Below are positions 24,089 through 63,075 of a stretch of DNA of 64,000 nt, piece after piece. Every line of letters begins with the position of its first letter. Position 1 is the stretch's first letter. The DNA is taken from positions 248,563-312,562 of the forward strand of contig NC_009635.1 in the NCBI RefSeq assembly GCF_000017185.1, written 5' to 3'. Source of the DNA: Methanococcus aeolicus Nankai-3. GTDB taxonomy: Archaea > AGJL01 > Methanococci > Methanococcales > Methanococcaceae. The notes under the pieces are model-generated. The model saw only the letters and a program-made list of their open reading frames with translations. It did not search any database and was not told where the DNA came from. The position numbers were made by a program, and so were the translations under genes.

Positions 24089-24186
24089 TATAGTTAATCT
24101 TCAAAAACTGTCCCTAATCTGCCATAAGATTGTGAAATTTAGCTTTGTTATCGTATTTAACTGAAAAAGACCGAAGATTAATTATA
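24089..24186. mobile_element. MITE-like element, short copy
   Basis: Bounded by imperfect terminal inverted repeats TATAGTTAATCTTCAAAAACTGTCCC ... GAAAAAGACCGAAGATTAATTATA; intergenic. Confidence 0.6.
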
Positions 24187-24230
24187 AATTAAAAAGATAA
24201 AAAAGATAAAAAATAAAAATAGTATTTAAT

Positions 24231-25463
24231 TTATTGAATAATTCCATATCCAATTAATCTCCATCTTGAACCTATTCTTCTACTCATTGCTATTCTGTCC
24301 CCTTTATCTGCGCAAATAGGAAGTTTTAACTTCATATCAGCCATATCTCCTCTTGCGGAGGTTATTATTCCAACTGTGGTTGCTGTTCCCACATTTAACA
24401 TTAAAGCTTCATTTGATTTTAAAGGGCTTATTATTAATTCTTCGTCTGAACCTACAATTCTATCCAATAATTTTGTTTGAACTGTGATTTCGGATAAAGT
24501 TTCAGGCAATGTTCCCGGAGCTCCGGCTACACATCCACTTAGTGAATCTGATTTTGTAAGTGCTGGGTCTAATTCTGTTCCAATTCCAACCAATCCTCCC
24601 GGATGAGCCACTTTAACAGTTTTACCTCCAACACCAAGAGATGTGATTTTTGTAATTATAGATTCCCATCTAATTTTATTTCCTTCTACGATTTTTAATC
24701 CCGGTTTAATTTCGATTTTTTCGCCTGAATTAAGTGTTCCTTGAATTATGCTCCCTCCGATAACCCCACCTTTAAGCTTACTTATCTCGCATCCTGGTTT
24801 ATTGATGTCAAAACTTCTTGCAACATATAATCGTGCAGGAGCTCCCTCATCCATTTCAGGGGTTGGCATTAAATCCTCAATTGCATTTAATAATATATCA
24901 ATATTTGCTCCGTGATGTGCTGAAATAGGGATAATTGGGGCTTTTTCTGCTACTGTGTCTTTTACAAATTCTTTTATTTCGTTGTAGCTTTCTTTTGCTC
25001 TTTCTTCATCAACTAAATCAATTTTGTTTTGAACAATAATAATATTTTCAATTCCAAGGGCATCAAGTGCCATTAAATGTTCTTTTGTTTGGGGTTGTGG
25101 GCATTTTTCTGTTGCAGCTATTACCAATATTGCCCCATTCATAAGGGAAGCTCCTGATAACATTGTAGCCATTAGCGTTTCGTGCCCAGGTGCATCTACA
25201 AATGATATTTTTCTTGACATTTTTGTTTTGGTGCCACATACTGGACAGGTTTTGCTCACAGAATATGCTTCGGGAGCTCCACATTTTGGGCACTTCATAA
25301 TCTCACAATCTGCATAACCTAATCTTATGGAGATTCCTCTTTTTAACTCTTCACTGTGGGTGTCCGTCCATGTTCCGGTTAGTTGTCTGGTTAAACTGGT
25401 TTTTCCGTGGTCAACATGACCAACCATACCAATATTTATTTCCGACTGTTTTACTTTTACCAT
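24231..25463 (-). CDS. eif2g: translation initiation factor 2 subunit gamma (aIF2-gamma)
   Basis: 410 aa; GTPase G1 'GHVDHGKTS', zinc-ribbon Cys 'CPKCG...CPVCG'. Confidence 0.9.
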
Positions 25464-25753
25464 CGATATCCCTCTAATTCCGTTTATTATTTAATTTTAA
25501 TTGTTATCATTATATGTTTATATTTATTATAATAAAATATTTATTACATATATATTAATGTTGGATAATCTAAAATATAAAAAACCATTAATATAATATA
25601 AATATACAATATATAAATAGGAATAAAATAAATAGAATTTATTTTAATTAATTATATGTTTGAATATTATCAAAATGATTAAATATTTTTTATTACTTCT
25701 CTTAATTGATTATATGCAACACAGTATATATAATTTACATAAAATAATTTTAT

Positions 25754-26650
25754 ATGGTGAATATCATGGACAAAACAGGGAGCTCCTCGGCAATGGCTTT
25801 GGCATCAGGAACCATTATAAATGCCATAGCCACAGGTAAAGGTTCGGCATTTGGTATAGATTTAAATGTATGTGCCACGGTTGAGCTGATTGATGACGGA
25901 AAAAAAAGAATTAAAGGAATTATAAAAGACCATCCTACCGTGAAGCCCAATCTTATAGAAACTTGTGTAAAAAATGTTTTAAATTATTTTGAGTTGGATT
26001 ATTCTGCAACAGTAAGCACAAAAACCACAATACCAGTGAAATCTGGGCTTAGTAGTAGTAGTGCCACATCTAATGCCGTAGTTATGGCTACAATTGATGC
26101 AATAGGGGAAAAATTAGATCCTAAATTAATACTTGATTTGGCTATAAAATCCTCTTTCGATGAAAAATTAACCATCACAGGAGCTTATGATGATGCAACG
26201 GCGTCTTATTATGGTGGCATAACAATAACAGATAATACAAAAAGAGAACTAATTAAAAGAGATACCTTTAAAAGTAATAACGAAAGCATTGAGGATATTA
26301 TTGATGTTTTAATACTTATTCCAAATTTAAATAAAAATGTTAATGTAAATAGAATGAAACTTTTAAAAAATTCTGTTGCCGTGGCATTTAAAGAGTGTTT
26401 AGCTGGAAATTACTACAACGCACTATTTTTAAATGGTATTTTATATGCTTCGGCATTGAATTTTCCAACAAACATAGCAATTGAGGCAATCGAAAGTGGA
26501 GCTCTAACAGCAGGATTATCTGGAACAGGTCCATCATACATAGCATTATGCAATAAAGAAAATACCGAAAATGTTAAAAATACATTAAATAAATATGGTA
26601 AAGTAATTATCACAAAATTAAACAATAAAGGGGCGAGTATAGTATGGTAG
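25754..26650 (+). CDS. aroK: archaeal GHMP-type shikimate kinase
   Basis: 298 aa; GHMP motif '[15 protein letters not shown]'; N-terminus typical of the archaeal shikimate kinase family. Confidence 0.7.
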
Positions 26651-27342
26651 AAAAAGTTTATGGAATTGGAGTAGGTCCAGGAGATAAAGATTTATTGACG
26701 GTAAAAGCTGTAAATATATTGAATAGCGTAGATACAATTTTTGTCCCAATATCAAAAGAGGGTCGGAGCTCCGTAGCATATGATATAATAAAAGATGTAT
26801 TAAATGAGGATAAAAAAGAAAATATCGTAGAATTATTATTCCCAATGAGTAAAGATATTGATTATTTAAAAAAATACTGGAACGATGCTTTTAATACCAT
26901 TAAAGAAGCAAATGGAGAAGTAGCACTAATAACAATTGGGGACCCAACATTGTACAGCACCTTCTCTTATGTGTGGAGCTCCCTAAAAGAAAATAATATT
27001 TCTGTTGAAATTATAAATGGCATTCCTTCGCCTTTTGCAAGTGCGGGAAGGTTAAATATCCCACTTGTTGAAGGCGATGAAAATATTGCAATACTTCCTC
27101 AGGGAAAGGATTTAGAAAAATATTTGGGAGTATTTGATACTATTGTAGTTATGAAAACTAAAAGTTTAGGAGAAAAACTTAAAAAATTAGTTGATGAGGA
27201 GCATAAAAACGATTATATTGTAGGTATTGTAAGTAAAGCCTGTTGCGAAAATGAAGAAATTCAAATGGGAAAAATCGATGAAATTAATTTTGATGAGGTT
27301 AATGAATATTTATCTCTTGCAGTGATTAAGAAGATTAAATGA
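26644..27342 (+). CDS. cbiL: precorrin-2 / cobalt-factor-2 C20-methyltransferase (tetrapyrrole methylase)
   Basis: 232 aa; '[17 protein letters not shown]' N-terminal tetrapyrrole-methylase motif; overlaps the aroK 3' end. Confidence 0.6.
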
Positions 27343-28039: not shown

Positions 28040-28080
28040 AAAATAGGGACATATTAGGGACAGTTTTTGAACTTACTATA
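28040..28080. mobile_element. solo terminal inverted repeat of the same MITE family
   Basis: 'GGGACAGTTTTTGAACTTACTATA' is the reverse complement of the element terminus; only one end is present. Confidence 0.5.
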
Positions 28081-29290: not shown

Positions 29291-29419
29291 GTTATTTATT
29301 TATAGTCAATCTTCGAACTGTTTCACTCCATATTATGCAAATAAGACTATATTCTATTAATACGCCTTATAGCACCAATTATTTATGGCAAATAAGGGAC
29401 AGTTTTTGAACTTACTATA
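29291..29419. mobile_element. MITE-like element (~129 bp)
   Basis: TATAGTCAATCTTCGAACTGTTTC ... GGGACAGTTTTTGAACTTACTATA; lies between hisC and the 2-PGK gene. Confidence 0.6.
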
Positions 29420-30343: not shown

Positions 30344-30454
30344 ATTATGTGCCCTTTTTATGTATTTATTATATTAAATAGGGTTAATAAGTATAAAAAA
30401 TCATATGTTTTTAAAAATCATATTTAAAAAAATTAAAGAAGAACCTTGTGAATT

Positions 30455-30737
30455 TATAGTAAGTTCAATAACTGTCCCTTATCCCTTCTATTATTAAACA
30501 AAATCCTTTTAGGATTTTATACAAAAGCATAGCTTTTGTAAACGAATTTTCATTTATTGGTAATAGGTTAGATTTTAGCTTTAATAGGATCTCTAAATTT
30601 TCCTCTGAAAAATTTATACGACCTTAAAAACTCCTCCGGAATTTTGGGTCGTAAAAACTCCTCCGGAATTTTGAGATCGTAAAAATCGCTTTGCGATTTT
30701 GAGACGGTTTAGTGAAAAAGACCGAAGATTGACTATA
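30455..30737. mobile_element. MITE-like element, long copy (~283 bp) with internal tandem hairpin-containing repeats
   Basis: Termini TATAGTAAGTTCAATAACTGTCCC ... GTGAAAAAGACCGAAGATTGACTATA; internal about 3x 29-bp units 'CGTAAAAACTCCTCCGGAATTTTGRG'; last unit holds the hairpin AAAATCGC-TTT-GCGATTTT. Confidence 0.65.
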
Positions 30738-30805
30738 TTCGTGGGAGTAGGTCTTGATAAAATATATAATTAAAAATAATATTTAAATAGTTATTAAATA
30801 ATAAT

Positions 30806-31252: not shown

Positions 31253-31534
31253 ACATCACACCTATTTTTTCCTTTTATTATTTCGTTCGGGAGCTCCTGT
31301 ATTAACCCTAACGAATACATATATTGGCGAACATTCTATTAATTTCTATTAATTATTTTGAACATATATAAACAATTTTTTGGATCTCTAAAATCACAAA
31401 GTGATTTTATATGGTCACTGGAATTCAAAAATCTTTGATTTTTGTAGATTTTCCGGTTCCACTCAAAAACATACCACATATTTTAAATTTTATATATTTC
31501 ATTATATTGTCATATATTTATAGTATATTTTATA

Positions 31535-33146: not shown

Positions 33147-33254
33147 TTATATATGATTTAAAGATTTGGGAATGTCTAGAGGTATGGGGGAGCTCCTAGA
33201 ATTAAAATCGAAAAGTATATATAGTAGGTTGCCCATCTTAAAATAGTGAGTAGT

Positions 33255-33339
33255 GCGGAGATGGCCCAGTCTGGTACGGCGCGGGACTGCTAATCCCGTT
33301 GGGCTTTGCCCAACCCGAGTTCAAATCTCGGTCTCCGCG
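33255..33339 (+). tRNA. tRNA-Ser (anticodon GCU)
   Basis: Cloverleaf: acceptor GCGGAGA/TCTCCGC, anticodon stem-loop CGGGA-CUGCUAA-UCCCG (anticodon GCU), long variable arm 'TTGGGCTTTGCCCAACC', T-arm CCGAG-TTCAAAT-CTCGG; no encoded CCA. Confidence 0.8.
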
Positions 33340-34555
33340 TTTTATTTTTAAGACTATTTTATGCTTTTTTAAGACTATTTTAGTGTTTTCACATTACGGG
33401 ACTAAGTCCCGCAATGTCAATTGGAACTGTAATTAGTAATATGCGGGATTGATATATTTTTTTAAAATTAAATTATTCTTTTAACATTTTTTGTTTTCTT
33501 TCCCTGGGATGAGTATAATATAAAGTAGTATCTATTTTTTATGCCTCGTGTAATCTATTACAATTTCAATAGAAAACCCACTATCTAAAAGAGCAACTGC
33601 TCTACCATGCCGTAATGAGTGGAGAACTATTTTTTATTTTTTGGGGGTTTTGATTCCTCCTTTAATTCTTTTACAGTTTTTCTAAAAACTTCACTTATCC
33701 CTCCGTTGTTATTCTTTCTCCCATGTGGTTTTGAAATATATAATCTTCTTCTCCTTGATTGAGGTTATATTTTATATAATCAACCAGTGCATTTAATGTA
33801 TCCTCCGAGTATACACCATCCCTTTCTACTTTTCCTTTTGTATTTTTTATTTTAAAAACACCTTCCTTTAAATCTACATCCGGTTTTAAATTTATACTTT
33901 GGATAGCCTACAACCAGTATTCCACAATATCCTAATAATATTGTGTGAATTAAAAAATTTGACTCTAGGATTTTGTTTTTTAAAATTAGTTCCTGTGGTT
34001 TTGAGGTGAAATATTTCCCTTCATCGCCGATTTTAAGGGAGCTCCCCAAATTTATGGCATGGTATTTGTTCTATTTTTAGGATAATAATGCCGCCATTAT
34101 TGTTTAATTTGATTATTTCCTTATATTTCATAATTTCACCCAATGAATTTCATTAACATATTCTTTTCCTCTTACTGCACCTATTAAATGTTCTATTTTA
34201 TTAATCTGTTTCATTTTTTTCTTGATACATATCTTCCGACATATTATCTCGTTTCATATTATTACGGCCATTTCCATTACATTAATGCCAACATCAATTC
34301 CCATGCCTTATTTTTACATGTTTCTTCCGAATACGCGCCCTTATCAGTAGTAGTATTTTAGGTTGTGTTTTATTTTTTTGATTAAAAAATTATGGGAAAT
34401 TATATATATCTTAAAAATATAATTATTATATTGTATAACATATGTTTACATATGTGTGTATGGCATGGAGGTGATGATAGGTAAAAATAACAAGAGGAAA
34501 TATTAAGAGAGGTAAATTCACTAAAACTATAACTTTTAAAAGTAGAGGGCAAAAC

Positions 34556-35215
34556 ATGAATCTGGAGCACTTTAGTTTTCTAAAAAATAAAAAAGGTGCT
34601 ATGGGCATAGGTACATTAATTATATTTATCGCTATGGTATTAGTTGCAGCAGTTGCAGCAAGTGTGTTAATTAACACAAGCGGATTTTTGCAACAAAAAG
34701 CATCTTCCACAGGTAAAGAAAGCACCGAACAGGTAGCTAGTGGAATACAAATATTACAAATTAGTGGTATGCATAATACTACTCACATGAATAATTCTGC
34801 AATATATGTCACACCAAATGCAGGTAGTTCAGCAATTGATTTAAGCCAGTCTATTATTATTTTGGCAAGTGGTACATCAGAAAGAACTATTAGTTATAAT
34901 ATTTCAAAGGCACAAAGTTATGATTCAATAACAACTGGCGGTTCAGTATTTGGGTCACCAGTATGGGATAACCTAACTTCAAAAGACTTTGGCATAATTG
35001 TAATAGTAGATTCAGATGGATCATGCCAAAATATTACCCCAGTTATAAATAAAGGAGACCTTGTAGTATTGGCATTGAATACCGCAGATATGGATATGAC
35101 TCCTCGGACAATTGTAACTGGTTTAGTAAGGCCAGAGTTCGGAGCTCCGGGTGTGATATCATATATGACGCCTGCGACATATATTAATGATGTAACTGTG
35201 GTAAGGCTCCAATAA
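34556..35215 (+). CDS. flaB: archaellin (class III signal peptide)
   Basis: 219 aa. Signal '[15 protein letters not shown]|[35 protein letters not shown]'. The N-terminal hydrophobic domain is nearly identical across the five paralogs. C-terminal 'RPEFGAPGV'. Confidence 0.9.
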   Translation: MNLEHFSFLKNKKGAMGIGTLIIFIAMVLVAAVAASVLINTSGFLQQKASSTGKESTEQVASGIQILQISGMHNTTHMNNSAIYVTPNAGSSAIDLSQSIIILASGTSERTISYNISKAQSYDSITTGGSVFGSPVWDNLTSKDFGIIVIVDSDGSCQNITPVINKGDLVVLALNTADMDMTPRTIVTGLVRPEFGAPGVISYMTPATYINDVTVVRLQ

Positions 35216-51647: not shown

Positions 51648-51668
51648 TATATAATAATGCTTATTTAT

Positions 51669-52736
51669 TTAATATATTTTTATATCCAACACAAAAATAT
51701 GCTCTCTTGGAGAATATGATTTTACAATTCTTTTTTCAACTATTTCACAATTACATTTTGATTTAAATAAATTTATGGCTTCATTATAATCTGTTCCAAC
51801 AGTATAATAATGAATTATGCCATTTTTTTCAACCATTTTCAGTGCCGTATCTACAAATAAATGGGCAAATTTAGGAAGATTCATTATTATTCTATTACCT
51901 TTAACTTCTGTTTTTCTTATATCATTATTTATGGGTATTATTTTATGTTGGAGTTTATTTAATTTGATATTCTTTTTAAGGAGCTCCACGGCGTCTGGAT
52001 TTATATCTATGGCATATATCTTTTTTGCATTTTTACAAGCTATTGAGAAAGGACCAACTCCGCAAAACATATCCACAACAATATCCTCTGGTTTTACTTT
52101 TTCCATTATTCTCTTCCTTTCCCAGCCTAATCTCGGAGAGAAATAAACTTTTTCCACATCTACCCACAATCTATATCCATTTTCTTTATACATCGTTAAA
52201 GTTTTATATTCTCCTGCAAGGAGCTCCAATTCTCTAACTCGAAATTCTCCCAATATTTCGCTTTTTCTTCGATATACGGATTTTACAGATGGTATTAACT
52301 CTAAGGCCTTAGCCCCTATTTTTTTTGCAATGTTTTCGTCAATATTATCAGATATCTGTATAATTACAATATCTCCAATAATATCATAAGATAATACTAC
52401 GGCCCCATTTTCTATTTCTTTCTTAAAGTTTTTAAGTAAATATTCCCTAAAATTGAGTTTATTAGTTTTTGGATTTCCCAACATATTAATTTCAATAAAT
52501 TCTATATTATTGTATATTTTTTTTAAATTTTCCATAATAGATTTATCAATTTCAGTTTCGTCTGTGGAAATTATTGGAATAAATAAATAATTATCTTCTT
52601 TTTTTAATTTATAATTTTTATTAAGTTCGTTGTTGTCCAACAATATCTTTCTAATTCGTTCTCCTTTATTTGTGGGAACTTTGCAGCAAAGCACTTTTTT
52701 TGCTGTTATTGTTGTTTCTACTTCTGTTATTGTCAT
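51669..52736 (-). CDS. trm5: tRNA (guanine37-N1)-methyltransferase Trm5 / TYW2-family class I SAM methyltransferase
   Basis: 355 aa; SAM-binding 'VVDMFCGVGPFSIA', 'DINPDA', 'NLP' motifs typical of Trm5b. Confidence 0.7.
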   Translation of the reverse strand: MTITEVETTITAKKVLCCKVPTNKGERIRKILLDNNELNKNYKLKKEDNYLFIPIISTDETEIDKSIMENLKKIYNNIEFIEINMLGNPKTNKLNFREYLLKNFKKEIENGAVVLSYDIIGDIVIIQISDNIDENIAKKIGAKALELIPSVKSVYRRKSEILGEFRVRELELLAGEYKTLTMYKENGYRLWVDVEKVYFSPRLGWERKRIMEKVKPEDIVVDMFCGVGPFSIACKNAKKIYAIDINPDAVELLKKNIKLNKLQHKIIPINNDIRKTEVKGNRIIMNLPKFAHLFVDTALKMVEKNGIIHYYTVGTDYNEAINLFKSKCNCEIVEKRIVKSYSPREHIFVLDIKIY

Positions 52737-53113
52737 TATCTCACTTTTTTATAGTAGTGGTATTCAACAGTTTTTAAATTTATTCCTGTTATTTTTGCTA
52801 TTTCTTTTGGTGTTTTATTTTCTTTTTTAAGATTTAATATTATTTCTTTTTTGTCCGTAGGTCTTCCTGTCTGTGTATTTTTTGGTTTAATTGTAATTTC
52901 TATTTCTTCCAGTGCTTTTATTAGTTTTTTACTGGTTCTACCATACATAGACTTTGGAAGATATATATTTTCTATATCTGAGCTCTCCAAAATATTAATT
53001 GCTAAATCTTTTGTTAGTTCTTTATTAATATATAATTCTTCTTCCTCTCCGAAATCAGTATTATCAATTTTTTCAAGGAGCTCCCTTTTAGATTTTCCTC
53101 TTATTGTTATCAT
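52736..53113 (-). CDS. small HTH-containing protein
   Basis: 125 aa; C-terminal 'TPKEIAKITGINLKTVEYHY' resembles a helix-turn-helix; stop overlaps the trm5 start (TAATG). Confidence 0.4.
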   Translation of the reverse strand: MITIRGKSKRELLEKIDNTDFGEEEELYINKELTKDLAINILESSDIENIYLPKSMYGRTSKKLIKALEEIEITIKPKNTQTGRPTDKKEIILNLKKENKTPKEIAKITGINLKTVEYHYYKKVR

Positions 53114-53390
53114 AATATCTTTATATTTATATTTATATTTATATTTATTTTATAATTCTAACAGGTAGTTAAAACTTACTTTCAAACACACGATTTTAAC
53201 ATTATAACCAATATATTTATATATATTTTCCATTAATATTATATAATAAGTAGGTTTGTATTAGATAAAATCAACATATTAATATATAATAATACCATAT
53301 AATATCCATAAGAATTTAAAGTTTTATTCTTATTATTCCTATTATTATTTATTATTATTTAAATCCATTTAAAGAGATTGGTGGTATGTT

Positions 53391-54401
53391 ATGAGAGAAA
53401 TCATGATGTCAGAATGTAGCGAATTATTAATTAATAATGAGTATATAGTTTCACAGCCATTTAGTAGGTCATGTTTCGACATAATTGCTAAAAAAAAGAA
53501 CTCAAAATTCTTAATAAAAATATTGAAAAATATAGATAGTCTAAGTGTTAAACAGTCATCGGCTCTCTTAAAAATATCTAATTTATTAAATGCCACTCCC
53601 CTTTTAATTGGTTCTAGAACAAGAAATTATCCCATGGAAGAAGGCGTAGTTTATGAAAGACATAGTATAAAATCAATCACATATAATACATTTGAACAAT
53701 ATTTGAAGGGAGCTCCTCCAATGGTATATGCTGGAAGAGGAGGATTTTTTGTGAATATTGATGGAACAGAATTAAGAAGGATAAGGGAGGAGTTAAATAT
53801 ATCCGTTGGAGAATTAGCGGATTTTGCAAATGTTTCAAGAAAAACCATATACAAATATGAACAAAATATGGCAAATCCATCTGTTGAAGTTGCAATAAAA
53901 ATAGAAGAATATTTGGATAGTCCATTAATTAATTGTATGGAATTAAGCGCCAGTAATTTAAAAGAAAATCCAAAAAATACAGAGGATACCAAAAACAAAA
54001 ATGATGCCAAAATAAATAAAACCAATGAAGAAAATGAATTTAAATCATTGGTTATGAATATATTAAATGAATTAGGATTTAATTTAACAGAAACTGAAAA
54101 AGCACCATTTGATGTAGTTGCTGAAAAATACAAAGTGAAACAGAAGTATGAAGAAGAACCCAGATATAATCCATTATTATTAACAAATATAGAAGAAAAT
54201 GACAATGCAGAAATAAGAAAAAAGGCCATGATTGTTAATCAAATTTCAAATATATTAAATAGTTATTCATTAATGATATTGGAAAATAGCTCAAATGATA
54301 TGGGAAATATAAAAACTTTGAGTTTTAAGGAGCTTGAAAAAATGGACGATGCTTTTGATTTAATGGACTATTTATTGGATTCAAATAAAAATAAAAAATA
54401 A
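53391..54401 (+). CDS. putative HTH (XRE-type) transcriptional regulator, methanogen-conserved family
   Basis: 336 aa; central 'ISVGELADFANVSRKTIYKYEQN' XRE-like HTH; N-terminal 'CSELL...CFDIIAKK' domain as in MJ1164-like proteins. Confidence 0.55.
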   Translation: MREIMMSECSELLINNEYIVSQPFSRSCFDIIAKKKNSKFLIKILKNIDSLSVKQSSALLKISNLLNATPLLIGSRTRNYPMEEGVVYERHSIKSITYNTFEQYLKGAPPMVYAGRGGFFVNIDGTELRRIREELNISVGELADFANVSRKTIYKYEQNMANPSVEVAIKIEEYLDSPLINCMELSASNLKENPKNTEDTKNKNDAKINKTNEENEFKSLVMNILNELGFNLTETEKAPFDVVAEKYKVKQKYEEEPRYNPLLLTNIEENDNAEIRKKAMIVNQISNILNSYSLMILENSSNDMGNIKTLSFKELEKMDDAFDLMDYLLDSNKNKK

Positions 54402-54486
54402 TTAAGAATAAAAATAATTAATAATATATTATAGATATTGATATGTATATGTAGCTATATGGTTATAAAACATATATTTTATTTTT

Positions 54487-55137
54487 TTATTTATTTTTTT
54501 GGAATTCTTCCCAATCTTTCATAAAACTTTCTATTCCTTTATCTGTTAATGGGTGGTTGAACATTTTATCCAATACTGCAAATGGAATTGTAGCAACATC
54601 TGCTCCCATTTCTGCGGATTGAATAACATGTATTGGATGTCTCACAGATGCAACTATTACCTCTGTTGCTATTCCGTAGTTTGTGAATATTTGAACAATT
54701 TCAGCAATTAAATCCATTCCATTTTGTCCATTGTCATCTAACCTTCCAACGAATGGGGATACATAGGTTGCCCCCGCTTTTGCTGCCATTAGTGCTTGAT
54801 TTGCTGAGAATATAAGTGTTACATTTGTTTGGATTCCTTCCTTTGATAAAACATTTACGGCTTTTAAACCTTCTTTTGTCATTGGTATTTTTACAACCAC
54901 ATTATCTGCCAATTTTACCAATTCTCTTGCTTCCTCAATCATTCCTTCGGCATCTAATGCTATTACTTCTGCACTAACTGGACCATCTACGATAGAGCAT
55001 ATTTCTTTAATTACTTCATGAAAATCCCTTCCTTCTTTTGCTATTAGCGTTGGGTTTGTTGTAACTCCATCGACCATTCCTAAATCGTTAAATTCTTTTA
55101 TTTTATCCACATTTGCAGTATCTAAGAAAAATTTCAT
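54487..55137 (-). CDS. tal: transaldolase / fructose-6-phosphate aldolase family
   Basis: 216 aa; '[13 protein letters not shown]...[11 protein letters not shown]', Schiff-base Lys region 'VVKIPMT'. Confidence 0.85.
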
Positions 55138-55282
55138 AATTTCACCGTTCTTTTTTTATTTTGTAGTTATAAATATAATCATTTTTATATTAATTTTAAG
55201 ATATAAAAATTAATCTATTGCGTAGTGTAGTTTGGGAGCTCCCTAATATTATTTTAATATTATTTTAATATGGCGTTGCAAT

Positions 55283-56983
55283 TTATAAATTTTTTCCCAT
55301 ATATGCCCCAATTCTTTCATAACCTATCTTTTTATAATATTCTCTAACTCCAATACCGCTATTTATTAATATTTTATTTTTATTAAATTCTTCTTTTGCT
55401 ATTTTTTCAGCCTCTTTTAATAATAATTTTCCATATCCTTTATGTTGCCATGTTGTTTCTTTGTCCTCTGTTTCGGTTAATTTTTGCCCCTGTCCGCATA
55501 TATGGAGCTGTCTTATTAATGCCGTGTTGTTATCTATCTCTGGTCTAAATGGTTTATATGGAATTCTTAATCTAAGGTAGCCTATTAATATATCATTTTT
55601 GGTGTCTTCATACGATAAAAATATCTCTGTTCCACCATTTGCTTCATAGTCTTCCCTACAAAGTTTTATATCTTCTAATTTTGGTATTATTCCTTTTTTA
55701 TATATTATATGTCCAACTTCCCTACATCTTATACATTTACATTTTATATTTTGAGCCTCTAAATTTTTATATATGAGCTCCCCCAAATTACTTTTCCGAA
55801 CTCCTTCCTCAATTACCGTTGCAGGTATATCTCGCTGTATTCGTGAGGTTCTAACCCATTTTGGCATTATTGATTTTGCGTAGGTAATTAATTCTATTGC
55901 ATCATTATCATTTATTGGTTTAAATTCTCCTCTTTCATATATGTCATATAATTCAGTTCCTTTTATTACAAGACAGGGGTATATTTTTATTAAATCTGGT
56001 TTAAAGTTCGGATTGTTAAATATTTCGTAGAATAATTTTTTATCCAATTCTTTTGAAGACATTGGAAGCCCCGGCATAATATGGTAAGATATTTTTAAAC
56101 CACTATCTCTTAATAATTGGGTTGCTTTTATAGTATCTTCTACACCATGTCCTCTTTTTATATGATTTAATATGTCGTTGTATATGGTTTGAACTCCAAT
56201 TTCTACTTTTGTAGCTCCCAATTTTAGCATTTGGTTTATTTCTTTTTCTGTGCAGTAGTCAGGTCTAGTCTCCACAGTAAGTGCCACGCATCTATGTTTT
56301 GCAGTTTCGTTTATCTTCTGTGCTTCTTCAAGTGTATCGGATATTGTTCCATTTAAAGCATCTAAACAGCCTTTAACAAAGTTGTCCTGATATTCTGGTG
56401 GCCTAGATGGAAATGTCCCCCCCATTATAATTATTTCTACTTTATCGGTTGGATGTCCAACTTTTTCAAGCTGTTCTATTCTTTCCTTTGTTTGAATATA
56501 TGGGTCAAAATCATACATAATTCCTCGCATTGTGGCTGGTTCTTTTCCTGTGTAGCTTTGGGGTACTTCTCCAAAATTGCTGTCTGTTCCCCCTGGACAG
56601 AAAAAACATTTTCCATGTGGGCACTCATGAGGGGAGGTCATAATTGCCACAACAGCCACACCCGAAAGTGTTCTAATAGGTTTTTTTCTCAATATTGGGA
56701 CTATTATTTTTTTCTCCTCCTCCGTGGCATATTTTATTATTTCTGAATTTGGAGGAAATCCTATATTTAATTTATATTTCCTTAAACCTCGAGCTTTTAT
56801 ATCTTCTATCTTTTGTTTTTTCTTTTTTGGAGGTAAATTGTTTATATCTTTGCTATTTTCCATTAGTTTTTTAATTATATATAATATAAATTCTTTATAG
56901 CTTTTTTCATAGTTTTCATTATGATTTTCAGTATTTTTATTCAAAATCTTTGATTTTGTATTTTTAATATTCATTTTATTCAC
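55283..56983 (-). CDS. elp3: Elp3-family radical-SAM/GNAT tRNA-modifying enzyme
   Basis: 566 aa; radical-SAM Cys cluster 'CPHGKCFFCPGG', C-terminal GNAT 'QHKGYGKLLLKEAEKIA'. Confidence 0.85.
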   Translation of the reverse strand: MNKMNIKNTKSKILNKNTENHNENYEKSYKEFILYIIKKLMENSKDINNLPPKKKKQKIEDIKARGLRKYKLNIGFPPNSEIIKYATEEEKKIIVPILRKKPIRTLSGVAVVAIMTSPHECPHGKCFFCPGGTDSNFGEVPQSYTGKEPATMRGIMYDFDPYIQTKERIEQLEKVGHPTDKVEIIIMGGTFPSRPPEYQDNFVKGCLDALNGTISDTLEEAQKINETAKHRCVALTVETRPDYCTEKEINQMLKLGATKVEIGVQTIYNDILNHIKRGHGVEDTIKATQLLRDSGLKISYHIMPGLPMSSKELDKKLFYEIFNNPNFKPDLIKIYPCLVIKGTELYDIYERGEFKPINDNDAIELITYAKSIMPKWVRTSRIQRDIPATVIEEGVRKSNLGELIYKNLEAQNIKCKCIRCREVGHIIYKKGIIPKLEDIKLCREDYEANGGTEIFLSYEDTKNDILIGYLRLRIPYKPFRPEIDNNTALIRQLHICGQGQKLTETEDKETTWQHKGYGKLLLKEAEKIAKEEFNKNKILINSGIGVREYYKKIGYERIGAYMGKNL

Positions 56984-57061
56984 CGTGGAGCTCCATTATA
57001 TTCATATCAATATTATATGTACATAATGCGTTTAAAAAATTTATTTAATAATGTTAAATAT

Positions 57062-57113
57062 AAAATTATATAAATAATATAAAATTATATAAATAATATA
57101 AAATTATATATAT
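57062..57113. repeat. about 2.7 copies of a 19-bp AT-rich tandem repeat (AAAATTATATAAATAATAT) in the elp3/rpoE divergent intergenic region
   Basis: Direct reading of 57062-57113; units contain TATA-like cores. Confidence 0.6.
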
Positions 57114-57359
57114 GATAAAAGAAATAATATGTAGTAATTAGTTAATAGCGTAAATATAAAATATAATAATTATATTAACATACTATTTTAACAACATTTA
57201 TTATATGAAGTTATATACTACTTCTTTTTTATGGTATATTTAATCTAATGTAATATTAAATACAATAGATATAAAAAATATACTTTGTATTTCTAATGTT
57301 CTTTATATATACTATGTTTTAATTATTTAATTAATATTAATTTAATTAGAGGTGATTAC

Positions 57360-57947
57360 TTGTATAAATTAATAACCATATCTGACACCATTAGAGTTCC
57401 ACCCAAAATGTTCGGAGCTCCCTTAAAAGATAGCATACATAAAATATTAATGGAGAAATACGAAGGATTAATGGATAAAGACTTTGGTTTTATAATGTCC
57501 ATAGGCGATATCGGAGAAATTGGGGGGGGCAAGGTAGTTTATGGAGACGGAGCGGCATACCACCCTGCAATCTTTGATTTATTATGTTATGAACCAGAAC
57601 TATATGAAATTATAGAAGGAGAAATTGTAGATGTTGTAGAATTCGGTCTTTTCGTAAGATTGGGCCCGTTAGATGGACTTATACACATATCCCAAATTAT
57701 GGATGATTTCGTATCTTATGACCCGCAAAGGGGTGCTATCATTGGAAAAGAAAGCGGAAAAGTTATTGAAAAAGGCGATAAAGTTAGGGCAAGAATCGTG
57801 GCAATTAGTTTAAGAGAAGCTAAAAGAAGAGGAAGTAAAATAGCTTTAACGATGAGACAGCAAGGACTAGGAAAATTAGAATGGATTGAAGAAGAGAAAA
57901 ATAAAAGAGCTAATATCAACAATACAAAGGCTATTGCGGAAGAATAA
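57360..57947 (+). CDS. rpoE: DNA-directed RNA polymerase subunit E' (Rpb7 homolog)
   Basis: 195 aa; S1 domain; first gene of the conserved rpoE'-spt4-DUF359-S24e-S27ae cluster. Confidence 0.8.
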   Translation: MYKLITISDTIRVPPKMFGAPLKDSIHKILMEKYEGLMDKDFGFIMSIGDIGEIGGGKVVYGDGAAYHPAIFDLLCYEPELYEIIEGEIVDVVEFGLFVRLGPLDGLIHISQIMDDFVSYDPQRGAIIGKESGKVIEKGDKVRARIVAISLREAKRRGSKIALTMRQQGLGKLEWIEEEKNKRANINNTKAIAEE

Positions 57948-58038
57948 TCTACTACTCATAATGAATATATACATTCATTTATTTATTTTATAATTAATGA
58001 TATAATAAATCAATAATTGCTATAATTAAGGTGGAATT

Positions 58039-58218
58039 ATGAAAAAATCTTGTATAAGATGCAAGTATTTAACAGATGATGAAAAATGCCCAATTTGTGG
58101 CTTTGAAACATCAGATAATTGGAGGGGGCTTTTAATTATATTGGACCCAAAAGAATCTGAAATAGCTAAAAAAGCAAGAATTGATATCAAAGGTAAATAT
58201 TCATTAAGTGTAAAGTAA
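58039..58218 (+). CDS. spt4: transcription elongation factor Spt4 / RNAP subunit E''
   Basis: 59-aa ORF missing from the ORF track (<60 aa): 'MKKSCIRCKYLTDDEKCPICGFETSDNWRGLLIILDP...', with a 4-Cys zinc ribbon and the 'W.G...I..P' Spt4 signature. The overlapping 165-aa minus-strand ORF is spurious. Confidence 0.75.
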   Translation: MKKSCIRCKYLTDDEKCPICGFETSDNWRGLLIILDPKESEIAKKARIDIKGKYSLSVK

Positions 58219-58272
58219 TAAATAATAAGAATAATAAGGTAATAAAGACATATAAGAATAATAAGGTAAATA

Positions 58273-58758
58273 ATGTATATGCTAAATGAATCGACAAAAG
58301 AGATTTTAAAAAAACCCTTTGGAAAAGTATATAAAGAACTACCCCCAATAAATAGAAAAGTCAATATTATCGCAGTTGGTGATATTACCACAAAAAACCT
58401 TCTATCAAAAAGTATAATACCAAACCTGTCCATCATTGATTTAAAAACCAAACGGAATATTCCTGTAAAAATAAACCATAAATTTAAAACGGTTTTTGAA
58501 GTAAATAACCCCCAAGGGTGCATATCTGATGAAGCAGAAGAAACTATAAAATATATTTCTTCATTAGATATGGTGGATACAGCATTAATTGTAAAGGATG
58601 GAGAAGAAGATTTATTAACTATGATGGTAATTAGATATTTTCCAAAAGATACAATTGTATTATATGGACAACCTGATGAAGGAGTGGTGTTATTAACTAT
58701 AAATCAGGATTTAAAACATAAAATAAATAATATATTATCTATGATGGATAAAATTTAA
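58273..58758 (+). CDS. DUF359-family protein (GTP-dependent dephospho-CoA kinase family)
   Basis: 161 aa; 'IIAVGDITT...IIDLKTKR' DUF359 signature; canonical position after spt4. Confidence 0.7.
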
Positions 58759-58855
58759 ATAATTGTGTAGATAATAAAAGAATATATATTTCAAGATAGT
58801 AAAATTACAAGATTATAAATAACAGATATTACACACAAACTATATTGGTGATTAA

Positions 58856-59164
58856 ATGGAAATAAAAATAACATCTGATAGGGCAAACCCATTATTACAT
58901 AGAAGAGAAGTTAAATTCATAGCAAATTATGATGGAACTACGCCATCAGTTAACGAAATAAAGATGAAAATAACAGCAATGTTAAACGCTGACAAATCCC
59001 TAACAATAGTGGATTCAATCTGTCAAGAATATGGAAACACAGAATCCTTAGGATATGTTAAAATATATGATGATGAAAAATCAATGAATTTATTTGAAAA
59101 AAAATCAGTTTTAGAAAAAAATAAAATAGAAGAAGCTGAAACAACAGAAGAAGACGGTGAATAA
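58856..59164 (+). CDS. rps24e: 30S ribosomal protein S24e
   Basis: 102 aa; '[21 protein letters not shown]' S24e signature. Confidence 0.85.
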
Positions 59165-59167
59165 AAT

Positions 59168-59341
59168 ATGGCTACAAAAAACAAAGGAACACAAAAACAC
59201 AATTACTACAAAGTTGAAGGAGACAAAGTAGAAAAATTAAAAAAAGAATGCCCAAGATGTAAAGGTGGCGTATTCATGGCTGAGCACCTAAACAGATTTG
59301 CATGCGGAAAATGTGGATACACAGAATTCAAAAAACAATAA
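59168..59341 (+). CDS. rps27ae: 30S ribosomal protein S27ae
   Basis: 57-aa ORF absent from the ORF track; 'CPRCKGG...[11 protein letters not shown]' zinc ribbon; follows rps24e after a 3-nt gap. Confidence 0.8.
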
Positions 59342-59418
59342 ATTTTTAATTTTTTTTATAAATTTTTAATTTTTTTAATATATGATGATTTTTTTAGACA
59401 TAATTATGGGCGTTGTAT

Positions 59419-59655
59419 TATAGTCAATCTTCGGACATTTTCGCTAAACCATCTCAAAATCGCAAAGCGATTTTTACGATCTCAAAACTCCGAAGGAGTT
59501 TTTACGACCCAAAATTCCGGAGGAATTTTTAAGGTCGTATAAATTTTTCAGAGAAAAATTTAGAGATATTTTAAAGCTAAATTCTACTATTACCAATAAT
59601 AAAGAATGATTTAATGATTTGGACTATAAAGAACAGTTATTGAAGATTAACTATA
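59419..59655. mobile_element. MITE-like element, long copy in inverted orientation relative to 30455-30737
   Basis: Roughly the first 170 bp is the reverse complement of the 3' part of the 30455 copy (TATAGTCAATCTTCGG...CGCAAAGCGATTTTTACGATCTCAAAA...); ends ...GAACAGTTATTGAAGATTAACTATA. Confidence 0.65.
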
Positions 59656-59828
59656 TGCGGGGAGCTCCCAAAATATAACATAATCTAATAAAACATATCT
59701 TTTTTTAAATTGTTCGAAAATATTATATATCATTCATTATTTAATCGATATTGTTATTATTTCATTATTTATCTTTATTTATTATTTTATTTAATTGTAT
59801 AGTTATTTTAAATTTGGTGAATTAAAAT

Positions 59829-60470
59829 ATGTTAGAGGATATTTTAAAAGGAGATATTGAAAGAAAAACTATCACCCAAATATATGGTCCTCCGGGTGTT
59901 GGAAAAACCAATTTATGCATCATTTCTGCTATAAATTTTATAAGGCATGGATATAAAGTTGCATATATTGATACAGAGGGAGGATTATCGACCGAAAGAA
60001 TAAAACAAATTTCAAATAATAATGAAGAATTTAATAATATATTAAATAATTTAATAATATATGAACCTGAAAGCTTTGAGGAACAATCAACCATACTTAA
60101 ACAACTTGCCTTAATCGATAATTTGGGACTAATTATTGTAGATGGTATTGCATCACTTTATAGGCTAGAACTCTCCGATGATATCAATCAAAATGCAAAA
60201 GTAAATAGGATAATGGGAAACCAGATATTAATACTAAATAAAATATCAAAAAAGAACAATTCTGCGGTTTTAATTACTAACCAAATAACTGATACCAATA
60301 AAGGATTTAAAGCATCAGGGGGTAAGATTTTAGAATATTGGAGTAAAATAATAATTAGGATAGATAAACCAAACACCATAAGAGAAATGACATTAGAAAA
60401 ACATAGACATGCAGCAGAAGGTCAGAAATTACGATATAAAATAGTCAATAACGGCGTTCATAAATTATAG
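59829..60470 (+). CDS. radB: DNA repair and recombination protein RadB (RecA-superfamily)
   Basis: 213 aa; Walker A 'GPPGVGKTNLC', Walker B 'LIIVDGI'; archaeal RadB length. Confidence 0.8.
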   Translation: MLEDILKGDIERKTITQIYGPPGVGKTNLCIISAINFIRHGYKVAYIDTEGGLSTERIKQISNNNEEFNNILNNLIIYEPESFEEQSTILKQLALIDNLGLIIVDGIASLYRLELSDDINQNAKVNRIMGNQILILNKISKKNNSAVLITNQITDTNKGFKASGGKILEYWSKIIIRIDKPNTIREMTLEKHRHAAEGQKLRYKIVNNGVHKL

Positions 60471-60518
60471 TCATTGTAGGACACCCTGCATAATGCTCTA
60501 TGTTAAATAAGCGATATT

Positions 60519-60703
60519 TATAGTTAATCTTCAATGACTGTCCCTTATCCGCCCTAAATTATTAAATAAAATCTCTTCGAGATTTTATACAAAAGCATAG
60601 CTTTTGCAAATAAATTTTTTCGTTTTTCTTTAATTCAATAGGCAATAGGATATTTTGCTTAATTATAGCACGATTTAGTGAAAAAGACCGAAGATTGACT
60701 ATA
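60519..60703. mobile_element. MITE-like element (~185 bp)
   Basis: TATAGTTAATCTTCAATGACTGTCCC ... GTGAAAAAGACCGAAGATTGACTATA; internal 'TTTATACAAAAGCATAGCTTTTG' is shared with the 30455 copy. Confidence 0.65.
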
Positions 60704-60901
60704 ATGTTTAGTTACATATGAGTAAATATGTATGGATATTGAAATTTTATTGCAAATATTTCATAATTAACCATATAATCTGTTATATCTTTTTGAACGC
60801 ATCCTAATAATAAATATCTTAATATAATAATAATAGAATAATAATATTGTATTATATATATTGACCATACAATATTAAGCATATCGTTATATGGTGATAT
60901 T

Positions 60902-61231
60902 ATGAAAGTGCTATTATATATATTTGTAGAAATTGAAAATATTGGAAAAGCTATCAATGCCCTTTCAGAAGGGGAAATTTCTGGATTTTTTTTAATGGAA
61001 TATAAAGGAATGTCACCTCAAGAGTGGGCTGGATTTTTAATTGACGAGGAACCTGAAAAAGCTGTAAAAATAATCAATGATATGGCCAAAAATTCAGTTG
61101 TAATTGGAACTGTTGTTAGTGAGAATAATCTTGAAAACATAAAATATGCCATAGCTGAAAAATTAGGGGACTACAAACATACGATTATGGAGCTCCCATT
61201 ATGCGGACTAAAAGTAAATAAAGTGGATTAA
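60902..61231 (+). CDS. methanogen-conserved hypothetical protein
   Basis: 109-aa ORF directly upstream of atwA; no recognised motif. Confidence 0.4.
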   Translation: MKVLLYIFVEIENIGKAINALSEGEISGFFLMEYKGMSPQEWAGFLIDEEPEKAVKIINDMAKNSVVIGTVVSENNLENIKYAIAEKLGDYKHTIMELPLCGLKVNKVD

Positions 61232-61267
61232 TCAAATTAATTATTATTTATTATTTATTATTTTATA

Positions 61268-62875
61268 TTGGTGATGATAATGGTATTGCTTGAAGTAAAA
61301 AATGTTAGTAAAAAATTTGGAGATAGTGAGGTATTGAAAAATATAAATTTTACATTGGATGAAGGAGAGGTTCTTGGAATTCTTGGAAGAAGTGGTGCTG
61401 GAAAATCGGTTTTACTACATATGCTTAGGGGTATGGAGGGGTATGAACCAACAGAAGGGCAGATAATTTATACCGTAGCTCAATGTGATGGATGTGGTTC
61501 AGTAGAAGTTCCTTCGATGGAAAATCAAAAATGTAGTTGTGGAGGCAATTATGAGCTGATTTCTGTTGATTTCTGGGACAAAAATCAGACAACATTTAAT
61601 TTAAAAAGAAAAATTGCCATAATGCTCCAAAGAACTTTTGCTTTATATGGTGAGCAATCTGTTATTGAAAATATATTGCAGGCACTATCAGCAGCAGGGT
61701 ATGAAGGAAAAGAGGCAACAAATATAGCTCTAAAATTAATAAAAATGATTAAAATGGAGCATAGAATTACTCATGTTGCAAGAGATTTAAGTGGGGGAGA
61801 AAAACAGAGGGTAGTTCTTGCACGACAGATAGCTAAAAAACCAATCATATTTTTGGCAGATGAACCAACTGGAACACTGGACCCAAAAATCGCAAAAATT
61901 GTTCATAAAGCACTAAAAGAGACCGTAGTTAAAAATAAAATAGGCATGGTAATAACTTCTCACTGGCACGAGGTAATAGAAGAATTGGCAAATAAAGCCA
62001 TATGGTTAGAAAAAGGAGAGATAAAAGAACAGGGAGATAGTAAAGAAATAGTTGCTAAATTTGTAGAAACCATTACAGAATTAAAGAAATTTGACAAGGT
62101 TGAAATTAAAGAGGATATGGCAATATTGGAAAATGTTGAGAAAAAATATTGTTCGGTTGAAAGGGGAATTGTAAATGCCGTTGGTGGAGTATCATTAGAT
62201 ATTAAAGAAATGGAAATATATGGATTGGTTGGAACCAGTGGTGCTGGAAAAACTACCTTATCAAAAATAATTGCAGGTGTAATTCCTCCATCGAAAGGAA
62301 AATATATATTTAGGGTGGGGGATGAATGGGTAGATATGACACAACCTGGTCCAATGCATAGGGGAAGGGCAAAAAGATACATAGGTATGTTATTCCAAGA
62401 ATACACATTATATCCACATAGAACAATATTATACAACCTTACAGAATCCATTGGCTTGGAGCTCCCTGGAGAATTTGGAATGATGAAAGCTAATCAGGTG
62501 TTGGTTTCAGTAGGTTTCACAGAAGAGGAGGCAGAGAAACTATTGGATAAATATCCAAATGAGCTCAGTGTTGGGGAAAAACACAGAGTAGCACTTGCCC
62601 AAGTTCTTATAAAAGAGCCACATATGGTATTATTAGACGAACCAACTGGAACAATGGATCCAATTACAAGAAACCAAGTTGCAGAATCGATTCAAAAATC
62701 AAGGGCAGAATTAGAGCAAACTTATGTTATAGTATCTCATGATATGGATTTTGTGTTAAATGTATGTGATAGGGTGGCATTAATGAGGGGAGGCAAAATA
62801 ATTAAAATAGGAGCTCCCGAAGAAATTGTTCAAATATTGACGGAAGAAGAAAAAGAAGAAATGATTGGACATTAA
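61268..62875 (+). CDS. atwA: methyl-coenzyme M reductase system component A2 (tandem ABC ATPase)
   Basis: 535 aa with two ABC domains: Walker A 'GRSGAGKS' and 'GTSGAGKT', signatures 'LSGGEKQRV' and 'LSVGEKHRV', Walker B 'FLADEPT' and 'LLDEPT'. Confidence 0.8.
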
Positions 62876-62943
62876 TAACATATATTATTTATATAATTTT
62901 ATTTTTTTAATTATTTATTTTATTATTGTTTTTGAAAGGTAAT

Positions 62944-63073
62944 TATAGTTAATCTTCAATAACTGTTCCTTATCCGTCCCAAATTGAGCATATTTCTCTG
63001 TTGTTGGTAATATAATAAGAGATTTTATATTCTTTAACTATGCATTACGGAAATTGTTCGAAGATTGACTACA
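62944..63073. mobile_element. MITE-like element (~130 bp)
   Basis: TATAGTTAATCTTCAATAACTGTTCC ... GGAAATTGTTCGAAGATTGACTACA; lies immediately upstream of the terminal secreted-protein gene. Confidence 0.6.
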
Positions 63074-63075
63074 AA

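What the first reader, a model, noticed from the sequence alone, without database searches (positions are those of the whole stretch)
24089..63073. Family of TIR-bounded intergenic elements (MITE-like), at least 7 copies or fragments in 64 kb
Elements of 98-283 bp have similar termini: TATAGT(C/T)AATCTTC(G/A)A...ACTGTCCC at one end and its inverted complement (G)AAAAAGACCGAAGATTGACTATA at the other. They occur at 24089-24186, 29291-29419, 30455-30737, 59419-59655, 60519-60703 and 62944-63073, plus a solo terminus at 28057-28080. All lie between genes. Each begins with TATAG and ends with CTATA, which fits insertion at TA dinucleotides as seen for IS630/Tc1-mariner-derived MITEs. No transposase gene is present in the window. 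Longer copies share an internal segment (TTTATACAAAAGCATAGCTTTTG) and about 29-bp tandem units with hairpins.
Basis: seen in the sequence. Interest (0 to 1): 0.6.

Follow-up and report, generated by a model that had tools for sequence, protein, structure and literature searches.

The report
Abundant TA-inserting MITEs in Methanococcus aeolicus
The window comes from the methanogen Methanococcus aeolicus and carries a real family of short, non-coding mobile DNA elements with inverted-repeat ends (MITEs) that insert at TA, were recently mobile, and are an ordinary kind of element whose transposase is still unidentified.

Summary
The window (Methanococcus aeolicus) holds six complete elements of 98-283 bp and one truncated end. 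All are intergenic, lack coding capacity, and share a terminal inverted repeat, TAGTYAATCTTCRR, flanked by TA.

Comparison with strain PL15/Hp (about 99-99.97% identical) is decisive. Copies 60519-60703 and 62944-63073 are precisely absent there, and each empty site holds a single TA. So TA is a target-site duplication and the family moved recently.

Eight more copies lie outside the window in PL15/Hp, seven of them at two distant chromosomal sites. That is about one per 6-9 kb, which extrapolates to roughly 200-300 copies, about 2% of the genome.

No copy was found in 49 kb from related Methanococcales. An exact 26-nt end pattern was absent from species-representative genomes, metagenomes and viral contigs.

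No DDE or IS630-type transposase was seen in the roughly 135 kb of M. aeolicus DNA examined, so the IS630/Tc1-mariner attribution rests only on the TA duplication and the TIRs.

The long copies carry arrays of AAAA-stem-loop-TTTT hairpins. These gain or lose whole units between strains at orthologous copies.

Verdict: a real MITE family, a new member of a known kind, of moderate interest.

The parts
24089..24186 (+). Complete copy, 98 bp including the flanking TA on each side. The A end is on the left. It lies between the eIF2-gamma stop and the start of the fumarate-reductase-like flavoprotein gene.
   Evidence: Present in PL15/Hp as well. Logan contigs L002 and L003 break at 24090 and 24092.
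28045..28080 (-). Truncated copy. Only the A end remains (TATAGTAAGTTCAAAAACTGTCCCTAATATGTCCC); there is no B end. It lies between two convergent genes.
   Evidence: A-end profile positions 1-38, E 6e-9; no B-end hit nearby
29301..29419 (-). Complete copy, 119 bp, of the 115-120 bp subfamily. It abuts the stop codon of the ATP-cone gene at 29420 and lies 54 nt upstream of the aminotransferase start.
   Evidence: Subfamily relatives: L014 15428-15542, L019 8390-8507, L020 4773-4892.
30455..30737 (+). Longest copy, 283 bp. From left to right: A end, two hairpins (30500-30540), a spacer, three tandem 27-28 bp hairpin units (30622-30704), B end.
   Evidence: The PL15/Hp orthologue differs by whole hairpin units.
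59419..59655 (-). Complete copy, 237 bp, with three tandem hairpin units at 59452-59534. PL15/Hp lacks two of these units (55 bp).
   Evidence: (inverted repeat I1: 149 nt, 95% to the 30455 copy)
60519..60703 (+). Complete copy, 185 bp, with hairpins at 60566-60606. It is absent from strain PL15/Hp, where the empty site reads ...GATATT-TA-ATGTTT.... This gives a TA target-site duplication; the element proper is 60521-60701.
62944..63073 (+). Complete copy, 130 bp, absent from PL15/Hp. The empty site reads GGTAAT-TA-AATGAATGG. The right-hand duplicate has mutated to CA. The insertion sits 1 nt before the ATG of the downstream gene and separates it from its likely ribosome-binding site.

Best explanation
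These are miniature inverted-repeat transposable elements (MITEs): non-autonomous cut-and-paste DNA transposons of Methanococcus aeolicus.

Each consists of an approximately 16-nt terminal inverted repeat (TAGTYAATCTTCRR...), conserved subterminal sequence, and a variable non-coding interior. The A end carries one or two GTCCC motifs; the B end reads ...GTGAAAnAGnnCGAAGATTGACTA.

A transposase supplied in trans would bind the ends, excise the element and insert it at a TA dinucleotide with a 2-nt staggered cut, whose repair duplicates the TA. That chemistry and target are the signature of the IS630/Tc1-mariner superfamily, so this is the most likely, but unidentified, source of the transposase.

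Shown here: the TIRs, the TA duplication, strain-to-strain presence/absence, genome-wide multiplicity, restriction to intergenic DNA, and absence of coding capacity.

Inferred: the transposase family, and whether a functional copy still exists.

The hairpin arrays inside the long copies are cargo. They expand and contract as tandem repeats, and their AAAA-stem-TTTT form could act as T-tract terminators in both directions. That last point is speculation.
For: - Ends far above chance.
- Asymmetric but inverted ends, conserved across 14 complete copies of 77-283 bp, while the interiors are modular and variable.
- Two precise presence/absence polymorphisms against strain PL15/Hp, with a single TA at each empty site. 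The flanks are 98.7-99.7% identical.
- 25 of 28 flanking dinucleotides are TA.
- Copies elsewhere in the chromosome: L014 15428-15542, L019 8390-8507, and six in L020. In the two regions not chosen for the elements this is 7 per 42.4 kb, or 2.3% of the sequence.
- Short-read assemblies of the same strain break inside the elements.
- The longest stop-free stretch in any copy is at most 55 codons.
- All seven window copies lie between genes.
Against: - No DDE or IS630-type transposase was seen. That same sequence does detect IS630-family genes in the plasmid collection.
- No longer element with these TIRs was found. The exact 26-nt end pattern gave only isolated chance-like hits in species-representative genomes, metagenomes and viral contigs.
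- Only two empty sites support the TSD.
- 8 of 14 copies carry a 2-nt deletion inside the A-end repeat, so the two ends are imperfect partners.
- Whole-genome copy number is an extrapolation, because the source genome could not be searched.
Confidence: 0.85

Rival explanations
1. The elements are MITEs, but they are mobilised by a transposase outside the IS630/Tc1-mariner superfamily, for example an IS5/IS427-type, an IS30-type or an undescribed archaeal DDE enzyme. Alternatively they are orphans whose transposase is no longer in the genome, as is said of Neisseria Correia elements.
For: No IS630-like gene in the roughly 135 kb of M. aeolicus DNA sampled. No autonomous element with these ends in any collection scanned. 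From general knowledge, some IS5-subgroup and IS30-family elements also make 2-3 bp duplications.
Against: A strict TA target with a 2-bp duplication at both empty sites, and TA at 25 of 28 flanks, is the hallmark of IS630/Tc1-mariner. A 3-bp TNA duplication does not fit either empty site. Only about 8% of the genome was examined, so absence of the gene is weak evidence.
Confidence: 0.25
2. The elements derive from IS200/IS605 elements (palindrome-associated transposable elements). They would be moved as single strands by a TnpA Y1 transposase that recognises their hairpins, in a genome that carries many TnpB genes.
For: M. aeolicus has several TnpB (IS605 OrfB) genes. A hairpin of the same style as the MITE cargo (ACAAAATCC-TTCG-GGATTTTGT) sits in the left end of one TnpB element. 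One MITE lies 81 nt after a TnpB stop codon, and a degenerate A end abuts that element's left end.
Against: IS200/IS605 elements have no terminal inverted repeats and make no target duplication; these elements have both. The TnpB element ends (…CCCCTTCCGTAAGGGA… and …GGGAGGGGTAATTCAC) share nothing with the MITE ends. Two of three TnpB loci have no MITE next to the gene. Short copies of 77-135 bp have no hairpin cargo at all.
Confidence: 0.03
3. The elements are not mobile. They would be a family of structural or regulatory intergenic repeats (terminators, or REP-like protein-binding sites) spread by recombination, and the 'empty' sites in PL15/Hp would be deletions.
For: The elements are strictly intergenic and rich in AAAA-stem-TTTT hairpins. 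The 283-nt copy folds at -75 kcal/mol with z = -6.8. Hairpin unit number changes between strains. Similar hairpins occur outside the elements.
Against: At two independent sites the whole element is missing exactly from TA to TA, leaving one TA. Copies sit in unrelated flanks at distant loci. The short copies have the ends but no hairpins. The conserved parts are the termini, not the interior. This pattern is expected for transposase recognition, not for a terminator.
Confidence: 0.03

Closest known systems
Sulfolobus solfataricus SM1 MITE and its presumed parent ISC1048 (IS630 family). Recalled from the literature (Redder, She and Garrett 2001); not retrievable with these tools.
   Same: An archaeal, short, non-coding, TIR-bounded, multi-copy element attributed to an IS630-type transposase.
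   Different: No sequence relationship was tested. For SM1 a parent IS with matching ends is present in the same genome, and here none was found. The host is a euryarchaeal methanogen, not a crenarchaeote. The size range here is much wider (77-283 bp), and the elements carry hairpin-array cargo.
Correia elements (CREE/NEMIS) of Neisseria. Recalled from general knowledge.
   Same: About 100-160 bp with TIRs, a TA duplication so that copies read TATAG...CTATA, hundreds of copies in a small genome, intergenic location, and no identified transposase. Ends that finish in TATA could create promoter-like junctions.
   Different: Bacterial rather than archaeal. The shared sequence is only the first 6 nt (TATAGT), which is too short to argue homology. 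Correia elements have fixed length classes and an IHF site. None of their functional features (promoters, RNase III processing) was tested here.
IS630/Tc1-mariner-derived MITEs in general (plant Stowaway, cyanobacterial Nezha, pneumococcal RUP). General knowledge.
   Same: TA target and 2-bp duplication, TIRs, heterogeneous interiors, and a preference for AT-rich non-coding DNA.
   Different: The TIR sequence is unrelated as far as I can tell, and no cognate transposase has been identified.
REP/BIME clusters of enterobacteria. This comparison applies to the internal hairpin arrays only.
   Same: Tandem arrays of short imperfect palindromes whose unit number varies between strains. The stem centres differ between units, yet each stays self-complementary.
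   Different: Here the arrays are cargo inside a TIR element. No RAYT-type gene was seen. Units are AAAA-N3-4-loop-N3-4-TTTT and have no known binding protein.

Membership tests
MITE (non-autonomous class II element) | Short length (tens to a few hundred bp) with no coding capacity | tested here: met
   14 complete copies of 77-283 bp; the longest stop-free stretch is at most 55 codons
MITE (non-autonomous class II element) | Terminal inverted repeats | tested here: met
   The first 16 nt are inverted repeats in every copy, with 16-21 of 26 positions matching. The end motifs are far above chance.
MITE (non-autonomous class II element) | Target-site duplication shown by comparing empty and filled sites | tested here: met
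   Two sites (60519-60703 and 62944-63073) are empty in strain PL15/Hp with a single TA; the filled sites are flanked by TA/TA and by TA/CA, the second duplicate being mutated
MITE (non-autonomous class II element) | Many dispersed copies in one genome | tested here: met
   7 in the window and 8 more in three other PL15/Hp loci at distant coordinates. The whole-genome count is only extrapolated.
MITE (non-autonomous class II element) | An autonomous parent element with the same ends | tested here: inconclusive
   None in the roughly 135 kb of M. aeolicus DNA sampled or in pattern scans of three collections. The source genome itself was not searchable.
IS630/Tc1-mariner-derived element | TA target with a 2-bp duplication | tested here: met
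IS630/Tc1-mariner-derived element | A cognate DDE (DDE_3 / DD34E-type) transposase whose element carries matching TIRs | tested here: inconclusive
   Not found in any sampled locus (Pfam lists; scans; tblastn). More than 90% of the genome was not examined.
IS200/IS605-derived PATE | No TIRs, no target duplication, and ends matching a TnpA/TnpB element | tested here: not met
   TIRs and a TA duplication are present. The ends are unrelated to the ends of the three TnpB elements aligned.
Correia element (Neisseria) | Sequence homology to the 26-bp Correia TIR and an internal IHF site | not tested
   Only a remembered resemblance of the first 6 nt (TATAGT). No Correia sequence was available to align.
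Described RNA family (Rfam) | A match to any Rfam covariance model | tested here: not met
   No hit at gathering threshold anywhere in the window except tRNA-Ser. No hit at E<=1 in 30400-30800.

The most novel reading that the evidence does not exclude
The family could be an orphan but still active MITE: no cognate transposase in the M. aeolicus genome, making it an archaeal counterpart of the Correia situation.

Its hairpin cassettes could also be a second, independently propagating module. Both long copies in the window strain carry the same 55-bp two-hairpin block at exactly the same position (TATACGA|...|TCGTAAAAA). The orthologous copies, and a third long copy in PL15/Hp, lack it there, with only 2 nt of microhomology at the junction. 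That pattern calls for gene conversion between dispersed copies or site-specific insertion of the cassette.

A related hairpin sits in the left end of one TnpB element. This leaves open that the single-strand IS200/IS605 machinery handles these cassettes.
Probability: 0.12. Interest if true: 0.6.

Novelty: new member of a known kind. Interest (0 to 1): 0.35.

Why it matters
MITEs are well known, including in archaea, so the kind of element is not new. I found no description of this family in the searchable literature, and it looks specific to M. aeolicus.

At an extrapolated 200-300 copies, about 2% of a 1.6-1.7 Mb genome, it would be one of the densest MITE loads in a small archaeal genome. 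It has moved since two strains that are about 99-99.97% identical diverged. That makes it:

- a practical strain marker;
- a source of assembly breaks;
- a possible cause of expression differences. One polymorphic copy sits between a gene's start codon and its likely ribosome-binding site; another supplies the TATA-rich sequence 50 nt upstream of an aminotransferase gene.

If an active TA-specific transposase can be found, it would be a candidate genetic tool for Methanococcus.

Tried and rejected
1. Counting copies genome-wide by pattern scan. The genome-contig scan returned one chance hit in a Bacteroidales MAG and none of the window's own seven sites. The M. aeolicus representative is therefore not searchable there, so the scan speaks only to other species.

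2. Metagenome and viral scans gave eight single hits. All match only the 14-17 nt core by profile, so I treated them as chance.

3. Rfam: nothing.

4. The sigma-70 promoter and terminator scan is not meaningful for an archaeon and was not above shuffles.

5. A 179-aa protein in L019 with weak HTH_7 and Sleeping-Beauty-HTH matches looked briefly like a transposase N-terminus. It has no DDE domain and no TIRs around it, and it sits beside an integrase fragment, so I rejected it as the partner.

6. A link to the TnpB elements was rejected because their ends are unrelated.

7. Looking for the family in relatives: 49 kb from Methanothermococcus okinawensis and three other Methanococcales contigs gave no copy.

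8. Literature: Filée et al. 2007 on archaeal insertion sequences was not held, so I could not check whether ISfinder or that review lists the family.

9. The outgroup could not be used to decide insertion versus excision at the polymorphic sites, because M. okinawensis gene order differs there.
Full report
**Source**

The window is Methanococcus aeolicus DNA. An eIF2-gamma protein encoded at 24231-25463 is found on CP104873.1, which is the complete genome of strain PL15/Hp. That chromosome is 99.97% identical to the window over 16.3 kb and 98.7-99.7% identical over other blocks.

The window itself matches several short-read assemblies at 100% but is not PL15/Hp. It is presumably the type strain. 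That is an inference, because the source genome appears to be withheld from every collection.

The window is 26-36% G+C and encodes ordinary archaeal housekeeping genes plus the archaellum operon.

**Observation**

The one correction is that the second copy begins at 29301, not 29291.

| Motif | Found in window | Expected from shuffles |
|---|---|---|
| 16-nt terminal motif, up to 3 mismatches | 10 | 0.64 |
| 24-nt variant end | 3 | 0 |
| 26-nt degenerate end pattern | 7 | 0 |

Profile HMMs of the two ends found no further copies in the window.

**Anatomy**

- The two ends are distinguishable. The A end is TATAGTTAATCTTCAAnAACTGTCCCTTATCC. A common variant, TATAGTAAG--TTCAA..., has a 2-nt deletion.
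- The B end, read inward, is TATAGTCAATCTTCGGTCTTTTTCAC.
- The two ends are inverted repeats over the first ~16 nt, and 16-21 of 26 positions match.
- About 38 nt at the A end and about 35 nt at the B end are conserved in all copies. The interior is modular and often unrelated between copies.
- No copy has a stop-free stretch longer than 55 codons.
- All seven window copies are intergenic. Several abut gene ends: 29419 is followed directly by a stop codon, and 63073 lies 3 nt before a start codon.

**Mobility**

This is the key result. Locus L014 of PL15/Hp covers window 50666-64000.

- Copy 60519-60703 is absent there. The window reads ...GCGATATT TA [TAGTTAATC...GATTGACTA] TA ATGTTTAG..., and PL15/Hp reads ...GCGATATT TA ATGTTTAG....
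- Copy 62944-63073 is also absent. PL15/Hp has GGTAAT TA AATGAATGG, while the window has TA [element] CA, the second duplicate being mutated.

So the outer TA of 'TATAG...CTATA' is a 2-bp target-site duplication, and the element proper begins TAGT and ends ACTA. A 3-bp duplication does not fit either site. Across 14 complete copies, 25 of 28 flanking dinucleotides are TA. Two of six complete copies differing between strains this close means the family has moved recently, whether by insertion or by precise excision.

**Copy number and distribution**

The genome could not be scanned directly, so I sampled PL15/Hp through TnpB paralogues.

| Locus | Position in PL15/Hp | Copies |
|---|---|---|
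| L019 | 1.15 Mb | 1 |
| L020 | 0.36 Mb | 6 complete, plus a degenerate A end |
| L014 | 2.5 kb beyond the window | 1 |

The two loci not chosen for the elements give 7 copies per 42.4 kb, or 2.3% of the sequence. The window gives 7 per 64 kb, or 1.7%. Extrapolated, that is roughly 200-300 copies per genome.

Short-read contigs of the window's own strain end inside the elements (24090, 24092, 59538, 60585, 60676), as expected for a dispersed repeat.

Outside M. aeolicus I found nothing:

- No copy in 20.7 kb of Methanothermococcus okinawensis, which is partly syntenic with the window's right end, or in four other Methanococcales contigs, about 49 kb in total.
- The exact 26-nt pattern gave only isolated hits in species-representative genomes, metagenomes and viral contigs. 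These match just the core and look like chance.

**Mechanism**

TIRs plus a strict TA duplication point to a DDE transposase that makes a 2-nt staggered cut at TA. That is the hallmark of IS630/Tc1-mariner (general knowledge). No such gene was seen:

- Pfam assignments for the genes across the window and four PL15/Hp loci contain none.
The same sequence does pick up IS630-family genes on plasmids.

Because under 10% of the genome was examined, this does not show absence.

The TnpB (IS200/IS605) elements present in the genome are not the source. Their ends are unrelated, and that family makes neither TIRs nor duplications.

**Hairpin cargo**

The long copies contain arrays of hairpins of the form AAAA-N3-4-loop-N3-4-TTTT. 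The 283-nt copy folds far better than shuffles: z = -3.6 on the + strand and z = -6.8 on the - strand.

The stems differ between units, yet each stays self-complementary. Examples are TCGC/GCGA, CTCC/GGAG, TTCC/GGAA, AAGC/GCTT, ATCC/GGAT and TCTC/GAGA.

Orthologous copies differ between the two strains by whole units:

- The window's 30455 copy has two extra units on the B side, and PL15/Hp has two extra hairpins on the A side.
- The window's 59419 copy has the same two extra B-side units that PL15/Hp lacks.

The identical 55-bp block is present at the same position in both window copies. It is absent from both PL15/Hp orthologues and from a third long PL15/Hp copy. I cannot explain this by simple slippage, and I record it as unexplained. 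Gene conversion between copies, or targeted insertion of the cassette, are the options.

Hairpins of the same style also occur outside the elements, and one occurs in a TnpB element's left end.

**Comparison and novelty**

The element works like IS630-type MITEs: Sulfolobus SM1, plant Stowaway, cyanobacterial Nezha. In lacking a known transposase and reading TATAG...CTATA, it resembles Neisseria Correia elements. These comparisons come from memory and were not tested by alignment.

It meets every structural criterion for a MITE. Membership in the IS630-derived class is met only for the target-site criterion.

I found no paper describing it. The main review of archaeal IS elements was not available.

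I rate it a new member of a known kind, real and recently active, of moderate interest.

Noticed in passing
whole window (55 sites, e.g. 2505, 5986, 27993, 59661, 63163); also L001, L014, L019, L020: The palindromic octamer GGAGCTCC occurs 55 times in 64 kb against 0.16 expected from shuffles. The next most frequent palindromic octamer with at least four G/C bases occurs twice. GGAGCTCC is found in all three reading frames (14/8/18), and 15 sites are intergenic. It runs at about 0.9 per kb in both M. aeolicus strains, at 4-5 per 10-20 kb in two relatives, and at 0 in two others. It looks like a highly iterated palindrome of the cyanobacterial HIP1 type in an archaeon. The methylome paper on PL15/Hp does not mention it.
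   Followed up: partly
window 31389-31444, 50727-50761, 56942-56958; L020 9800-9820 and 15283-15346; L014 13497-13569: Hairpins of the same AAAATC...GATTTT style as the MITE cargo occur in intergenic DNA with no MITE ends around them. One sits inside the left end of a TnpB element. They may be a separate small repeat family or remnants of decayed MITEs.
   Followed up: partly
window 30622-30676 and 59480-59534, against L001 and L014: The same 55-bp two-hairpin block is present at the same internal position in both long MITE copies of the window strain and absent from both orthologues in PL15/Hp. Only 2 nt of microhomology lie at the junction. This suggests gene conversion between dispersed copies or site-specific insertion. 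It is unexplained.
   Followed up: partly
window 33349-34502 (next to tRNA-Ser at 33254-33340), against L001 745-2150: The segment beside tRNA-Ser(GCU) is replaced between strains. PL15/Hp carries a DUF2540 gene and a tyrosine-integrase gene there. The window has 1.15 kb of unrelated DNA with no ORF of 100 aa or more. This is probably an integration hotspot.
   Followed up: no
window 34556-38737: There are five archaellin (flagellin) paralogues. The last three form a tandem of 703-bp repeats that are 99-100% identical over the 300-nt reference segment.
   Followed up: no
L014 18850-20049 (about 5.9 kb beyond the window's right end); L019 10001-11200; L020 10001-11206: TnpB (IS605 OrfB) genes have conserved element ends. 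The family has about 90% identical paralogues in M. aeolicus and a 93% identical fragment in Methanothermococcus okinawensis. L014 13180-13580 looks like a TnpB-less derivative carrying the same end hairpins.
   Followed up: partly
window 63070-63080, against L014 12050-12070: The polymorphic MITE at 62944-63073 is inserted between the likely ribosome-binding site (AAGGTAAT) and the ATG of a 359-aa protein with no Pfam match. Expression of that gene may therefore differ between the strains.
   Followed up: no
L020 9728-9755 and 11287-11421: A degenerate MITE A end directly abuts the left end of a TnpB element, and a complete MITE starts 81 nt after the TnpB stop codon. The TnpB element may have inserted into or beside a MITE.
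   Followed up: no
window 243-5402: The left end of the window encodes a GmrSD-type nuclease, a PD-(D/E)XK nuclease and a UvrD-like helicase in a row. This may be a defence or repair cluster.
   Followed up: no
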